A stretch of 30,710 nucleotides of DNA. Source: a virus. Its lineage: Duplodnaviria; Heunggongvirae; Uroviricota; Caudoviricetes. The stretch lies in the IMG/VR virus record IMGVR_UViG_2529293040_000025, positions 1 to 30,710 of that record, one strand, 5' to 3'. Made by a program: the position numbers and the translations under genes. Below are positions 5,843-24,775 of this stretch, piece after piece (position 1 is the stretch's first letter; each line of letters opens with the position of its first letter). The notes under the pieces were generated by a model. The model made no database searches. It had not been told where the DNA came from and saw nothing but the letters and a program-made list of their open reading frames with translations.

Positions 5843-6205
5843 TTAATGACCTGCTGCGCGTAGTTTTCCGTCAGGTTCACCGGCAAGAGTCAGTAATTGT
5901 CCCTGGTCTTCCTGCAGAATAGTCAGGCGACCACCGCGATTGACATACATCGGTGTTTCGGTGGTGTCTTCTTCGGAAATTTTCCCGCGGTTAGTCGGGC
6001 GAACATATGAGAGTTTGTGTTTGATTTTCACACGGTTCTCATCAAATGGTTCGATTTCCAGGTTGAGCGAGACCTTACCTTTGGTTTTCGTGTTCATCAC
6101 ACCGGAAGCGACTTCACTGAGAGCTGCGCCGATTTTGGTTTCAAATACGCCGCCGTCCAGCTCCCCGATAAATGCCTGCACATCAGTACTGCGTTCGCTA
6201 GCCAT
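5843..6205 (-). CDS. hypothetical protein (YfdP-like), first gene of the leftward operon
   Basis: Start set at MASERSTD (ATG at 6203-6205) with AGGAG upstream. The long N-terminal extension of the ORF-track ORF (to 6391) looks non-coding. Confidence 0.5.
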   Translation of the reverse strand: MASERSTDVQAFIGELDGGVFETKIGAALSEVASGVMNTKTKGKVSLNLEIEPFDENRVKIKHKLSYVRPTNRGKISEEDTTETPMYVNRGGRLTILQEDQGQLLTLAGEPDGKLRAAGH

Positions 6206-8546: not shown

Positions 8547-8823
8547 TTCTGCCATTCCGGGACGTTACACTGTTCAGGCACCTTATAAAGCGGGTGCCGG
8601 GATTGGCGTCCTGAAATTGATTACTGAGCATAACCGCGCTCATGCGGTTTTTTCGTGTCATGAGCATTGCTACGCCCAAATTATGGTGGGGCGTACAGGG
8701 CCGACTTCGGTCGGGCCGGGTTCGGTAGTCTCCGGTAACGCCAACCCTGTACGTCTCACCACCTCTGTGATTGGCGTCCCATGTGGTGAGTTTTCTGAAA
8801 AACTGACTACCGGGGCTGTCACC

Positions 8824-17179: not shown

Positions 17180-17256
17180 CCGCCATTAGCTCATCGGGAT
17201 AGAGCGTCAGCCTTCGAAGCTGGCTGTGCGGGGTTCAAGTCCCCGATGGCGGTCCA
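17180..17256 (+). tRNA. argN: tRNA-Arg (anticodon TCG)
   Basis: 77 nt; acceptor stem CCGCCAT/ATGGCGG; T-loop TTCAAGT; anticodon loop CTTCGAA; ends CCA. Confidence 0.8.
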
Positions 17257-17269
17257 TTATCAGCATCAT

Positions 17270-17346
17270 GCGTTGTTAGCTCAGTCGGACAGAGCAATTG
17301 CCTTCTAAGCAATCGGTCACTGGTTCGAATCCAGTACAACGCGCCA
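17270..17346 (+). tRNA. argO: tRNA-Arg (anticodon TCT)
   Basis: 77 nt; acceptor stem GCGTTGT/ACAACGC; anticodon loop CTTCTAA; T-loop TTCGAAT; ends CCA. Confidence 0.8.
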
Positions 17347-18708: not shown

Positions 18709-19022
18709 TTTTTTTATTTGCTGTTTATTAAAAATACTACTGCATGGTGAATCCCCCTGTGCGGAGGGGCGATCAGCAACCAGGTATATGGGATAATCGC
18801 GGATTCAGGTGCTGATACTGAATTCACCGGGAGGCACCCGGCACCATGCTTTGCCGCAAAAGTGTTGTTTCTGTTTTTCTCAAACTATCATCGTTATCCC
18901 TTTATTTCCGGCTGCGCATGGCGTGGCCTTTTTTTTACGACCAGCCACTGGCAGATGGCCATCCTGTAATTTGATTCCGGTTCCGGCTTTTTAACTCTGT
19001 TCCTGTACACGGGAGAAATTCG

Positions 19023-22528: not shown

Positions 22529-22660
22529 ATGTCAGACAAACTCATAACGCTGGCGAAGATCCTCTGTGTAATTGTCGGCATTTCATTTTCACTAATGCTG
22601 GTTGCTCTTTTTCTTTCCATGGCCTGGATGATGTTGTCTTCGTCGGGGTTGCTGGGGTGA
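22529..22660 (+). CDS. small hydrophobic peptide (43 aa)
   Basis: Strong GAAGGGAGG RBS; single long hydrophobic segment; its stop overlaps the GTG start of Rz (GTGA). Confidence 0.35.
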
Positions 22661-23130
22661 ACATAAACCGAATGCTTTCCGCGTTTATCGTTATTCTGCT
22701 GGTGGCCTGTGGTGCGCTGTGGATGGCAACAGACCATTACCGTGATAACGCGATTACCTACAAAGCGCAGCGCGATAACAAAGCCAGTGAACTGAAGCTG
22801 GCGAACGCAACCATTACTGATATGCAGGTGCGCCAGCGCGATGTTGCTGCGCTCGATGCAAAATACTCGAGGGAATTATCCGATGCGAGAGCTGAAAATG
22901 AAACTCTGCGCGCTGATGTTGCCGCTGGTCGTAAGCGCCTGCGGATCAACGCCACCTGTCCAGGCTCCGTGCGTGAAGCCCCCACCACCTCCGGCGTGGA
23001 TAATGCAACCGGCCCCCAACTGGCAGACACCGTTACACGGGATTATTTCACCCTCAGAGAGCGGCTGATGACGATGCACAAGCAACTGGAAGGGGCACAG
23101 GACTATATCCGCACTCAGTGCCTGAAATAA
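22657..23130 (+). CDS. Rz: Rz i-spanin
   Basis: Strong similarity to lambda Rz ([14 protein letters not shown]...ADAENETLR...[10 protein letters not shown]) as recalled; N-terminal transmembrane anchor. Confidence 0.8.
22883..23068 (+). CDS. Rz1: Rz1 o-spanin (lipoprotein, embedded in the +1 frame of Rz)
   Basis: Lipobox (LVVSAC) and proline-rich [14 protein letters not shown] motif as in lambda Rz1. Start could be 22883 or 22898. Confidence 0.7.
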
Positions 23131-23479
23131 GTTTTGTTGATGCGCCGTATCGTCGCTGTATTCCCTCATTAACAGAGACCGCAGCCCGACAGGGAGACTC
23201 CTCTGCGCGAGTGTGCGGGGATAATCAAAAACGATACACACCGGGGTTTACCGCGTTAACGGAGCGCGGCGTTGTCCCCTCATAGTCGCCTGTCCGGTGC
23301 GATGGTGGAAGAAGCCGGATGTTTATCACTATTAATTGATGACACAGAAATGGATTCATTGAATTTCAGCACGTTTTTGTATTCGTGTTATTGAACATCT
23401 GTTTATTTTACTTTTAACATATTGATAATAAAAAGAGCTGTAAATCTTTAGATGAGTCGATTTTGTCCGGGGAAGTTCA

Positions 23480-23620
23480 AATGGATTTTATGCTGACGGT
23501 TTCTGGTGTGGTTATCCTGTCCATTGCTTATACTGCAGATAAATATGGCTGCCATTTGTTATCACGTATTGGCGCTTATTGTTCGTTGATGCTGATTTTC
23601 TCGTCGCTTTTTTTTGAGTA
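23480..23620 (+). CDS. possible small membrane peptide (46 aa)
   Basis: GGGGAAG RBS 6 nt before the ATG; hydrophobic translation MDFMLTVSGVVILSIAYTADKYGCHLLSRIGAYCSLMLIFSSLFFE; lies in an AT-rich intergenic island. Speculative. Confidence 0.2.
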
Positions 23621-23753
23621 AGTTATATTAATTATAACAAATAATTTTCTGTGTTATTTTTTCAGGCTATCCCGTCAGAGGGGAAGCCTGTACTGCCGGG
23701 GAGCGAATGGAAAACTGATGTGTCCGGTAACTGCGTGTTCTGTGAACACCATG

Positions 23754-23939
23754 TTACTTAATTATGTAATTCATACCCGAACTCTCTGTTGACAGCCTTC
23801 TTCTGCAGGCTTCAATAACCCACGCTGAAAAGTTTCCTGAACCTTTCAGATCAAGAGCGATGTTAATTTGTTCAATCATCTGGTTTGGAAATCGGATGTT
23901 GCGGGTTGTTGTTCTGCGGGTTCTGTTCTTTGATGACAT
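23754..23939 (-). CDS. DUF3950 / YlcI-YnfO-like ribbon-helix-helix protein
   Basis: RNIRFPNQMIEQINIALDLKGSGNFSAWVIEACRRRL resembles the small YlcI-type proteins found just upstream of cos and terminase genes in E. coli lambdoid prophages; GGGGA RBS. Confidence 0.55.
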   Translation of the reverse strand: MSSKNRTRRTTTRNIRFPNQMIEQINIALDLKGSGNFSAWVIEACRRRLSTESSGMNYIIK

Positions 23940-24145
23940 AATGTTTCCCCATATTCAGTGTTGCTGATTTGTATTATCTGAAGTTGCTTTTACGTTAATT
24001 TGACGCAGATCAATTAATACGATACCTGCGTCATAATTGATTATTTCTCGTGGTTTGATGGCGTACACACATGTTGTGATAAACCTTATATAGATGATAA
24101 TCATTATCATTTCGTGGGTCCTTTCCGGCGATCCGACCGGTTACG

Positions 24146-24157
24146 GGGCGGCGACCT
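24146..24157 (+). other. cos site: lambda-type 12-nt cohesive end GGGCGGCGACCT
   Basis: Sequence GGTTACG-GGGCGGCGACCT-CGCGGGTTTTCGCTATTTATGAAAATTTT matches the lambda genome termini as recalled; it lies about 70 nt upstream of the Nu1-like gene. Confidence 0.75.
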
Positions 24158-24226
24158 CGCGGGTTTTCGCTATTTATGAAAATTTTTAGGGAAAAATCAG
24201 ATCCTTTCTGGTTCCCGGGGGAGTGT

Positions 24227-24775
24227 ATGAACGTCAATAAGAAAAAACTGGCCGATATTTTTGGCGTTGATGTCAGGACCATCACCGCCTGGCAGAGTCA
24301 GGGGTTACCACTAGTTTCTGGTGGAGGGAAAGGGACTGAATCAGTTTTTGATACAACTGCTGCCATTCAGTGGTATGCGCAGAGGGAAGCTGATATTGAA
24401 AACGAAAAACTCCGTAAAGAGAGCGAGGATTTGAGGGCTGCCAGCGAATCAGACCTTCAGCCCGGCACCATTGATTACGAACGTTACCGACTGACGAAGG
24501 CACAGGCCGATGCACAGGAGCTGAAAAATGCTCGTGAGGAAGGCCTTGTCCTCGAGACGGAGTTATTTACCTACATCTTTCAGCGAGTGGCACAGAATAT
24601 ATCAGGGATCCTTGTCCGTGTCCCTCAGACACTGCAGCGTAAATACCCTGATATATCACCCGCACATCTTGATGCTGTGAAAACTGAAATCGCGAAAGCA
24701 TCCGATGTGGCTTCTGAAGCCGGTGAGAATGTGCGCAGGTGGATTGATGATTTCAGACGAACTGAGGGCGGCTAA
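24227..24775 (+). CDS. nu1: terminase small subunit (lambda Nu1-like)
   Basis: [36 protein letters not shown]... is closely similar to lambda Nu1; GGGGGAG RBS. ORF-track start 24176 is an extension. Confidence 0.85.

What the first reader, a model, noticed from the sequence alone, without database searches (positions are those of the whole stretch)
23131..24160. AT-rich island between Rz1 and cos with a divergent RHH gene and a possible small membrane ORF
About 1 kb of AT-rich sequence separates the lysis cassette from cos. It contains a minus-strand YlcI-like ribbon-helix-helix gene and a well-initiated 46-aa hydrophobic ORF on the plus strand, plus long non-coding stretches. This is another known cargo position (bor and lom-type morons in other phages).
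Basis: partly seen in the sequence, partly recalled or inferred. Interest (0 to 1): 0.4.

Follow-up and report, generated by a model that had tools for sequence, protein, structure and literature searches.

The report
Prophage cargo junction with hidden RNA
The stretch between the lysis genes and the packaging site of this lambda-like E. coli prophage is a patchwork of four separate pieces, three of them ordinary (an orphan small membrane-protein gene, the known ylcI gene, lambda's own cos left arm) and one an unannotated, apparently structured RNA element found in most E. coli genomes and in phage lambda itself.

Summary
The 46-aa hydrophobic ORF (23481-23621, +) and the YlcI/DUF3950 gene (23754-23939, -) are real, and 23326-24110 is AT-rich (33-42% GC). 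The first 195 nt after Rz are not AT-rich (55% GC).

The interval has four modules:
- **A (23139-23328, +):** a conserved ~185-nt element with a covariation-supported RNA structure. It lies on the late-transcript strand, is absent from Rfam and is unannotated. It occurs in 4145 of 5426 E. coli genomes, in Stx phages, ES18 and lambda.
- **B (23326-~23805):** an AT-rich insertion relative to "empty-site" phages. It carries orf46, an orphan two-helix hydrophobic protein. A 76%-identical allele keeps the frame (dN/dS 0.31).
- **C:** ylcI. An Arc/Mnt-like ribbon-helix-helix fold is plausible but not statistically confirmed.
- **D:** the ylcI upstream region plus cosQ and cosN, about 88% identical to lambda's right end.

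The interval is not a cosB leader. cosB lies on the other side of cosN, and B plus ylcI also sit beside unrelated terminases. The cargo-position idea is supported. Functions of A, orf46 and YlcI remain inferred.

The parts
22657..23130 (+). Rz (i-spanin), with Rz1 embedded at about 22883-23068. This is the left border of the interval.
   Evidence: ORF list; Pfam Phage_lysis 7e-47.
23139..23328 (+). Element A: a conserved ~185-nt structured-RNA candidate on the late-transcript strand. Paired core 23147-23320. Helices: P1 23147-53/23231-37; P2 23159-73/23211-23; P3 23180-87/23192-23207; P4-P5 23243-54/23266-79; P6 23292-98/23314-20.
   Evidence: About 400 phage records at 76-100% identity. 11132 places in 4145 of 5426 E. 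coli genomes, unannotated. RNAalifold gives 42 pairs. 97.1% of cells are paired; 13 pairs have changes on both sides against 4.7+-1.6 in shuffles, with 0 of 500 shuffles reaching the observed value. On 72 distinct sequences, 17 pairs against 6.1+-1.6. 94 G-U cells against 7 A-C cells favour the + strand. The covariance model scores 214.7 bits here, 123 bits in lambda and 128 bits in DLP12. No Rfam match.
23326..23805 (.). Module B: an AT-rich (33-40% GC) insertion carrying orf46 and the 3' tail (last ~16 codons) of ylcI.
   Evidence: Composition. Absent from the 'empty-site' phages 705R7 and 2G7b. Present in 734 of 5426 E. coli genomes but only 2 of 50697 phage records. A 76%-identical allele exists in strain SHP24.
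23401..23435 (.). A 35-nt block, invariant between the two diverged B alleles, 46 nt upstream of orf46. It holds weak promoter-like hexamers on both strands (minus strand TTTACA-17-TATGTT at 23444-23416; plus strand TTGAAC-18-TAACAT read by eye).
   Evidence: Alignment A1; promoter scan; sequence. No evidence of function.
23481..23621 (+). orf46: a 46-aa orphan hydrophobic protein, MDFMLTVSGVVILSIAYTADKYGCHLLSRIGAYCSLMLIFSSLFFE, with two predicted helices joined by a DKYGCHLLSR loop.
   Evidence: ORF. PGAP and Sakai annotation. dN/dS 0.31 against the SHP24 allele, compared with 0.55-0.65 in the other frames; no indels in the ORF against 23 gap columns in the 148 aligned columns downstream of the ORF. 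Against Sakai, 1 synonymous difference in 141 nt, compared with 2.6% and 5.3% divergence in the flanks. AF2 gives helices 2-22 and 24-44 at pLDDT 72. Hydropathy. No family in Pfam, PHROGs or NCBIfam. A single 50% cluster among 1.84 billion representatives.
23754..23939 (-). ylcI/ynfO-family gene (DUF3950), 61 aa, convergent with orf46. The N-terminal 50 residues are conserved; the C-terminal tail is hypervariable.
   Evidence: Pfam 9e-19; NCBIfam NF041551 at 35.2 bits against a cutoff of 30; phrog_949 at 9e-32; family alignment A4; AF2.
23940..24145 (.). Module D: AT-rich DNA shared with lambda's right end (about 88% identical). It is the region upstream of ylcI and the left arm of cos.
   Evidence: Megablast to lambda, HK629, HK630 and DE3: window 23805-24160 at 87.6-88.2%; four-way alignment A5.
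24009..24041 (.). Imperfect palindrome ATCAATTAATACG-N7-CGTCATAATTGAT, interleaved with GACGCAG/CTGCGTC. It lies 70-102 nt upstream of the ylcI start and is invariant in lambda, DLP12, 2G7b and the window.
   Evidence: Inverted repeat I3; alignment A5. Its role as an operator or a cos accessory site is not tested.
24116..24122 (+). GGGTCCT, at the position of lambda cosQ (24-30 nt left of the nick).
   Evidence: Sequence and alignment to lambda. The cosQ identity and coordinates come from my own recollection of the lambda literature, not from a tool.
24146..24157 (+). cosN: the 12-nt cohesive-end sequence GGGCGGCGACCT, identical to lambda.
   Evidence: Sequence; alignment A5.
24227..24775 (+). 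Nu1 (small terminase subunit). This is the right border. Only 69 nt separate cosN from its start codon.
   Evidence: Pfam Phage_Nu1 3.7e-86; ORF list.

Best explanation
The interval is the junction between the lysis module and the packaging module of a lambda-type prophage. It is built from four independently inherited pieces.

(A) Element A, 23139-23328. This is a conserved RNA element read on the late (pR') transcript strand. It folds into a long irregular hairpin (P1-P3), a small two-helix domain (P4-P5) and a terminal hairpin whose loop keeps GGAAGAA (P6). In lambdoid phages it lies after the lysis and cargo region and ahead of ylcI or the terminase genes. My inference is that it acts in cis on the late polycistronic mRNA, as a processing or stability element between the lysis and morphogenesis segments. 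It might alternatively be released as a stable RNA.

(B) Module B. A ~480-nt AT-rich moron-like insertion sits exactly at A's 3' edge. It encodes an orphan 46-aa protein predicted to form a two-helix membrane hairpin. At the least it would be translated from the late transcript, and possibly from a weak promoter of its own.

(C) ylcI. It is convergent with orf46 and encodes a small, basic, probably Arc/Mnt-like DNA-binding protein. Its 3' end is a recombination hotspot.

(D) The DNA upstream of ylcI, plus cosQ and cosN, is lambda's own right end.

Shown: the anatomy, the distributions, the covariation in A, and purifying selection on orf46. Inferred: every function.
For: Anatomy and mosaicism. 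The segments differ in distribution and identity. Comparison with empty-site phages defines the insertion. In a tally of 137 copies, A is always co-oriented with Rz. It is followed by ylcI (36), ybcV+ylcI (26), orf46+ylcI (14), a 933W-type terminase gene (5) or something else (annotated examples).

Element A as RNA. The consensus has 42 pairs. 97.1-97.7% of cells are paired, and 13 and 17 pairs carry compensatory changes against 4.7 and 6.1 in shuffles (0 of 500 shuffles reach the observed values). Controls with slid partners give 1-9. G-U cells outnumber A-C cells 94 to 7, so pairing holds in 97% of cells on the + strand but 87% on the - strand. The window's single-sequence MFE fold is only 84% paired across the family. 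Flanks on both sides of A are non-homologous between phages while A is kept.

orf46. dN/dS is 0.31 and the ORF has no indel in the 76%-identical allele. The GGGGAA and ATG are kept. The protein is identical in Sakai despite 2.6-5.3% divergence in the flanks. AF2 predicts two helices.

ylcI. Family hits. The segment NIRFPNQM aligns in register with Arc NLRWPREV and Mnt NFRMPMEV. ylcI is transcribed in K-12 as a convergent overlap with ybcW (PMC12288877).
Against: Element A. No expression data were available. Single-sequence folding is not unusual (z = -0.5). The consensus fold lies about 10 kcal/mol above the MFE in the window and about 20 kcal/mol above it in ES18. P4-P5 are poorly kept in lambda. 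No Hfq-bound sRNA candidate of Tree et al. 2014 was seen at this position in the part of the Sakai peak list I read (Sp6 coordinates known; Sp5 position estimated), in uninduced cells. The copies are related by descent, so shuffle controls overstate significance.

orf46. It is an orphan confined to E. coli prophages. An ORF of this length is common in shuffled T-rich DNA. Only one diverged allele carries the dN/dS signal (24 differences). No consensus promoter or intrinsic terminator flanks it. Frameshifted variants exist.

YlcI. No significant match to any solved RHH protein by sequence profile or fold. hhalign probability is about 2%.
Confidence: 0.6

Rival explanations
1. orf46 is not a gene. 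It is a chance open frame in T-rich inserted DNA, kept only because the module is young, and module B acts (if at all) through its DNA or RNA, for example a promoter or an H-NS-bound AT-rich spacer.
For: 34% of shuffles of the module contain an ATG ORF of at least 46 aa. No homologue exists outside one 50%-identity cluster. There are no family hits. 733 of 734 genomes are at least 95% identical, so most copies carry no information. Frameshifted forms are on record. The most conserved part of B is the 35-nt non-coding block at 23401-23435.
Against: The 76%-identical allele keeps the frame, start, Shine-Dalgarno-like sequence and hydrophobic pattern. Its dN/dS is 0.31, against 0.55-0.65 (with stops) in the other frames, and it has 0 indels against 23 gap columns just downstream. 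The ORF is the least diverged part of B against Sakai.
Confidence: 0.3
2. Element A is conserved at the DNA level only, either as a homologous-recombination 'linker' between modules or as a transcription terminator for minus-strand morons (ylcI, ybcV, bor) that end against it. The inferred RNA fold would then be incidental.
For: A sits exactly where flanking sequences switch between alternatives on both sides. The stop codons of ylcI and ybcV abut its 3' edge. The single-sequence fold is not significant on either strand. Lambda shows a duplicated remnant of A's 3' end next to ylcI, as expected from recombination at this sequence.
Against: Compensatory changes occur in four helices, including complete replacement of hairpin sequences with pairing kept. 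The strong G-U against A-C asymmetry points to the plus strand, not the minus strand, and is not expected for duplex DNA. No U-tract directly follows a stem on the minus strand (sequence).
Confidence: 0.15
3. Module B is a type I toxin-antitoxin locus: orf46 is a small membrane toxin held in check by a divergent or antisense small RNA.
For: The peptide is small and hydrophobic. A promoter-like site on the minus strand at 23444-23416 diverges from orf46. The locus is AT-rich and prophage-borne.
Against: No direct repeat gives an sRNA-mRNA pairing segment; the repeats found are short, unrelated two-copy matches. There is no match to any toxin family. Rfam finds no antitoxin RNA. Two hydrophobic segments in 46 aa is unlike the single-helix Hok, Ldr, Ibs, TisB or Zor toxins (my own knowledge).
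Confidence: 0.07
4. The whole interval is a packaging-site leader: terminase- or IHF-binding DNA (cosB-like), with YlcI as a cos-binding accessory factor.
For: ylcI always lies immediately upstream of, and divergent from, the packaging genes. An invariant palindrome lies between ylcI and cosQ.
Against: Alignment to lambda places cosB right of cosN. Modules A and B occur beside lambda-type, HNH-type, 933W-type and ES18 packaging genes. In Sakai Sp6 the DNA upstream of ylcI is unrelated and only about 40 nt long, so the palindrome goes with lambda cos and not with ylcI.
Confidence: 0.08

Closest known systems
Lambda bor and the DLP12/lambda ybcV-ybcW cargo between Rz and cos (morons in the sense of Juhala et al. 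2000)
   Same: Same slot (after Rz/Rz1, before ylcI and cos). Extra DNA that is absent from close relatives. AT-rich. Dispensable-looking small genes. orf46 takes the place of ybcW as the plus-strand gene convergent with ylcI.
   Different: orf46 has no sequence relative among these genes and is an E. coli-restricted orphan. bor and ybcV are on the minus strand. No consensus promoter or terminator flanks orf46.
YlcI (DLP12) and YnfO (Qin), DUF3950 / NF041551
   Same: The first 50 residues are 77-93% identical. Same position and orientation next to the terminase small-subunit gene. Lambda carries an intact copy.
   Different: The C-terminal tail (STESSGMNYIIK) is specific to the module-B allele. 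Nucleotide homology to lambda stops at 23805, although the RRRL residues are kept with different codons.
P22 Arc and Mnt (ribbon-helix-helix repressors)
   Same: An N-x-R-x-P strand motif followed by helix, G-x-x-N/S turn and helix. Small size, and predicted topology.
   Different: No statistically significant sequence or fold match. YlcI has a long basic N-terminal arm. No operator is known.
Structured RNA elements within phage polycistronic transcripts (lambda sib and N-leader RNase III sites, HK022 put RNAs) and prophage late-leader sRNAs (STnc100/PasD, StxS)
   Same: Conserved, phage-borne, on the transcribed strand of a long operon. The long irregular hairpin (P1-P3, about 20 bp in total) resembles RNase III substrates (inference).
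   Different: Different location (after the lysis genes, not at pL, pR or pR'). No sequence or covariance-model similarity to any Rfam family. STnc100 is found elsewhere in this same window at 18716-18885. No processing or antitermination has been shown.

Membership tests
YlcI/YnfO (Pfam DUF3950 PF13132; NCBIfam NF041551) | Score above the curated cut-offs of the family models | tested here: met
   PF13132 scores 67.5 bits against a cutoff of 25. NF041551 scores 35.2 against 30.
YlcI/YnfO (Pfam DUF3950 PF13132; NCBIfam NF041551) | Prophage gene lying just upstream of, and divergent from, the small terminase gene | tested here: met
   Same arrangement in the window, O104:H4, SHP24, DLP12, Qin, lambda, 705R7 and Sakai Sp6.
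Ribbon-helix-helix (Arc/MetJ/CopG) superfamily | Significant sequence or structure similarity to a solved RHH protein | tested here: not met
Ribbon-helix-helix (Arc/MetJ/CopG) superfamily | Strand - helix A - short G/S/N turn - helix B topology, with base-contacting residues on the strand | tested here: inconclusive
   The AF2 monomer has an extended 1-18 segment, helix 19-32, the turn GSGN and helix 37-59, with pLDDT 84-86 in the core. hhalign puts NIRFP on Arc NLRWP and Mnt NFRMP, but at E 0.023-0.16 and probability <=2%. phrog_497 (HicB-like) hits at E 0.012.
Ribbon-helix-helix (Arc/MetJ/CopG) superfamily | Dimer with an antiparallel beta-ribbon that binds DNA | not testable with these tools
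   Only single chains could be modelled, and there is no binding assay.
Moron (autonomous extra gene in a phage operon) | DNA present between two conserved neighbours and absent in close relatives, with deviant composition | tested here: met
   An extra ~420-480 nt relative to 705R7 and 2G7b. GC 0.335-0.40 against 0.50-0.56 in the flanks.
Moron (autonomous extra gene in a phage operon) | Own promoter and terminator | tested here: inconclusive
   There is no plus-strand sigma-70 site at the scan's threshold upstream of orf46, and the terminator-like sites are no more frequent than in shuffles. Only weak hexamers lie in the invariant 35-nt block.
Type I toxin-antitoxin | Antisense or divergent sRNA with a pairing segment to the toxin mRNA | tested here: not met
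   No suitable direct repeat. No Rfam antitoxin.
Lambda-type cos | cosN cohesive-end sequence with cosQ on its left | tested here: met
   GGGCGGCGACCT at 24146-24157 and GGGTCCT at 24116-24122, aligned with lambda. The cosQ definition is from memory.
Lambda-type cos | Lambda-like cosB (R3-I1-R2-R1) between cosN and Nu1 | tested here: not met
   About 100 nt of lambda's cosB are missing or replaced; the cosN-Nu1 spacer is 69 nt. This lies outside the finding.
Any Rfam 15 family (for element A) | Covariance-model match | tested here: not met
   Nothing relevant at E<=1 over 22900-24400, or at E<=10 over 23125-23345. The only hits were miRNA models, attributable to chance.

The most novel reading that the evidence does not exclude
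Element A (23139-23328) is a previously undescribed functional RNA class of lambdoid phage late operons. It is present in lambda itself (between bor and the ybcV-like ORF), in Shiga-toxin phages, and at up to 11 copies per E. coli genome. It would act on late-gene expression, through mRNA processing or stability or as a released regulatory RNA.
Probability: 0.5. Interest if true: 0.65.

Novelty: new member of a known kind. Interest (0 to 1): 0.45.

Why it matters
orf46 and ylcI are already annotated as hypothetical genes. Showing that they form a swappable cargo module at a known moron slot is ordinary phage genomics.

The part that could matter is element A. Lambdoid late operons are among the best-studied transcription units. 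A structured RNA kept in about three quarters of complete E. coli genomes, in lambda and in Stx phages, yet absent from Rfam and from genome annotation, would be a cheap and directly testable lead. Lambda genetics, rnc and rne mutants and northern blots would all apply. The question it opens is how lysis and packaging gene expression are separated on one 25-kb transcript. It could also bear on Stx-phage late expression.

The analysis also gives an exact 'empty site versus filled site' map that can be used to catalogue cargo at this junction.

Tried and rejected
- **Rfam:** the whole window at gathering thresholds and the interval at permissive E-values gave nothing in 22900-24400.
- **Known EHEC/EPEC prophage sRNAs:** AgvB, AsxR and the other EcOnc sRNAs lie at the pR' moron site, and none of the Hfq peaks I read lies at the Sp6 copy of A or at the estimated Sp5 position.
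- **Literature:** full-text search for ECs1538 and ECs1537 found nothing relevant. Searches on YlcI, YnfO and DUF3950 found gene lists only.
- **Type I TA pairing repeats:** none found.
- **MITE-like inverted repeat around orf46** (23339-50 / 23646-57): not conserved in the SHP24 allele, so judged chance.
- **Leader-peptide reading of the ATG...TAA mini-ORF at the 5' end of A:** the start codon or the frame is lost in ES18, L124 and Stx2 II.
- **Fold searches for YlcI:** no significant match.
- **An early inference of mine that lambda and DLP12 carry a split element A:** wrong. The covariance model finds full-length copies in both.
- **Single-sequence MFE fold of A as the conserved structure:** rejected, at 84% paired against 97% for the consensus.
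- **Wider taxonomic range of A:** a strict core pattern found it only in Escherichia species, E. albertii and Intestinirhabdus, plus likely contaminant contigs. Salmonella phage ES18 also has it.
Full report
**What the window is.** The window is a lambda-type prophage of E. coli. The 1030-nt interval is 100% identical to chromosomes of many strains, including O104:H4 2011C-3493. Rz ends at 23130 and Nu1 runs 24227-24775 (Pfam). The lambda cohesive-end sequence GGGCGGCGACCT is at 24146-24157.

**Check of the observation.**
- The minus-strand 61-aa ORF at 23754-23939 is a YlcI/YnfO (DUF3950) protein.
- The plus-strand ORF at 23481-23621 encodes 46 hydrophobic residues behind GGGGAA. RefSeq annotates it as a hypothetical protein.
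- The base-composition claim is only partly right. GC is 0.335-0.42 from about 23326 to 24110, but 0.53-0.56 in 23131-23325.
- An ORF of this length is not unusual in shuffled versions of the AT-rich module: 34% contain one.

**The interval is a mosaic.** Searching its parts separately gives very different distributions.
- The last 355 nt (23805-24160) match lambda, HK629, HK630 and DE3 at about 88%.
- The middle (23300-23760) occurs in 734 of 5426 complete E. coli genomes. It occurs in only 2 of 50697 phage records, and it is always linked to ylcI.
- The first 200 nt occur in about 400 phage records at 76-100% identity, and at 11132 places in 4145 E. coli genomes, almost never annotated.
- Strain SHP24 carries an allele in which the middle is 64-80% identical to the window, while the first part is 95% and the last part 89% identical.
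- Phages 705R7 and 2G7b show the empty site: the first element directly abuts the 3' end of ylcI. The window has roughly 420-480 extra nucleotides.

**Element A (23139-23328).** Hand inspection of seven copies showed hairpins whose sequences differ but still pair: CCGCG/CGCGG, CTGTG/CGCAG, CAGC/GCTG, TCTCAT/ATGGGA; and TCCGG/CCGGA, CTCGA/TCGAG, TCCTG/CAGGA.

I collected 130 copies from IMG/VR and annotated phages, giving 83 distinct cores. I then aligned 21 diverse ones with MAFFT.
- RNAalifold predicts 42 pairs in a three-domain fold.
- On that alignment 97.1% of cells pair. Thirteen pairs show changes on both sides, against 4.7+-1.6 in shuffles (0 of 500 shuffles reach the observed value) and 1-8 when partners are slid.
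- A covariance model built from it recovers one copy in the window (214.7 bits). It also recovers full-length copies in lambda (between bor and the ybcV-like ORF, 123 bits) and in K-12 DLP12 (128 bits).
- On the model-guided alignment of 72 distinct sequences, 17 of 42 pairs are compensatory, against 6.1+-1.6 in shuffles. That alignment leans towards the model.
- There are 94 G-U cells against 7 A-C cells. The pairing therefore holds in 97% of cells on the plus strand but 87% on the minus strand. The plus strand is the strand of the Q-dependent late transcript.
- A is always co-oriented with Rz, even when it lies between two minus-strand genes, as in 2G7b. Sequences on both sides of A switch between unrelated alternatives.

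Caveats on A:
- The single-sequence fold is not unusual (z = -0.5).
- The consensus fold is about 10 kcal/mol above the window's MFE, although that MFE fold is only 84% paired across the family.
- The copies are related by descent.
- I found no expression data. In the part of the Tree et al. (2014) peak list I read, no Hfq peak lies at the Sp6 copy or at the estimated Sp5 position.
- Rfam has no match.

I conclude that A is probably a functional RNA element of the late transcript. A cis role in mRNA processing or stability is my best guess and is purely inferential.

**Module B and orf46.**
- Against the SHP24 allele, the ORF has 24 differences in 135 nt. dN/dS is 0.31, compared with 0.55-0.65 (with stop codons) in the other frames.
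- The ORF has no indel, while the 148 aligned columns downstream of it have 23 gap columns.
- The Sakai allele differs by one synonymous change in the ORF, while its flanks differ by 2.6% and 5.3%.
- GGGGAA and the ATG are kept.
- AF2 predicts two helices, 2-22 and 24-44, at pLDDT 72. Hydropathy shows two hydrophobic segments around DKYGCHLLSR.
- The protein has no family in Pfam, PHROGs or NCBIfam. It forms a single 50%-identity cluster among 1.84 billion representatives.
- No consensus promoter or terminator flanks it. A 35-nt block at 23401-23435 is invariant between the alleles and holds only weak hexamers.
- Repeats give no support for a type I toxin-antitoxin or a MITE.

I judge orf46 a probably real, taxonomically restricted small membrane protein of unknown role.

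**ylcI.**
- Residues 1-50 are nearly invariant across the family and the tail is hypervariable. Nucleotide homology to lambda stops at 23805 while the RRRL residues are kept with different codons. The 3' end of ylcI is therefore a recombination junction, and module B brings its own tail.
- Lambda has an intact 64-aa homologue.
- In K-12, ylcI and the convergent ybcW overlap transcriptionally (PMC12288877). orf46 occupies ybcW's place, so a similar overlap is possible here.

**Module D and cos.** The 206 nt between ylcI and cosN are lambda's right end. They include an invariant palindrome at 24009-24041 and GGGTCCT at the cosQ position. cosB lies to the right of cosN and differs from lambda here. 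B plus ylcI also sit beside HNH-type terminases. The 'cosB leader' alternative therefore does not apply.

**Verdict.** The RHH label is plausible but unproven. The cos-proximal third is ordinary lambda DNA. The first fifth is a widespread, unannotated, covariation-supported RNA element that deserves an experiment.

Noticed in passing
window 24158-24226: Only 69 nt separate cosN from the Nu1 start, against about 180 in lambda. Lambda's cosB stretch is missing or replaced, and the Nu1 N-terminus is diverged. This suggests a different cosB/terminase specificity.
   Followed up: partly
window 24074-24101 (+): A promoter-like TTGTGA-16-GATAAT lies 45 nt left of cosN and points into Nu1. It is also present in lambda. 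If it were active in a lysogen it would express terminase.
   Followed up: no
window 18716-18885, 8578-8654, 8679-8766: Rfam gathering-level hits to STnc100 (102 bits), isrK (59 bits) and C4 antisense RNA (82 bits), all on the plus strand.
   Followed up: no
window 17097-17346: Three tandem tRNA genes: Met-CAT, Arg-TCG and Arg-TCT.
   Followed up: partly
L139:2120-2145 (lambda) and L129:3730-3755 (K-12 DLP12): A remnant of element A's 3' end (GGAGGGAAGAACGCGGGATGTTCAT) lies next to ylcI, in addition to the full copy after bor. This looks like a duplicated junction flanking the ybcV-ybcW insert.
   Followed up: partly
L004:2950-3140 (Sakai Sp6, NC_002695.2): An intact ylcI reading frame is not annotated in this record. 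A 29-aa ORF, ECs_1539, is called on the opposite strand instead.
   Followed up: partly
L016:5055-5243 and 6005-6193: One IMG/VR contig carries two full copies of element A about 950 nt apart. L040 carries a full copy plus a weak partial one (50 bits).
   Followed up: no
E. coli genome collection: 691 of the 11132 places matching element A are on plasmids (presumably phage-plasmids). The copy number reaches 11 per genome.
   Followed up: no
window 23330-23340 and 24009-24019: An 11-nt perfect inverted match, TATTAATTGAT / ATCAATTAATA, joins the left edge of module B to the palindrome upstream of ylcI. It may be chance in AT-rich DNA.
   Followed up: no
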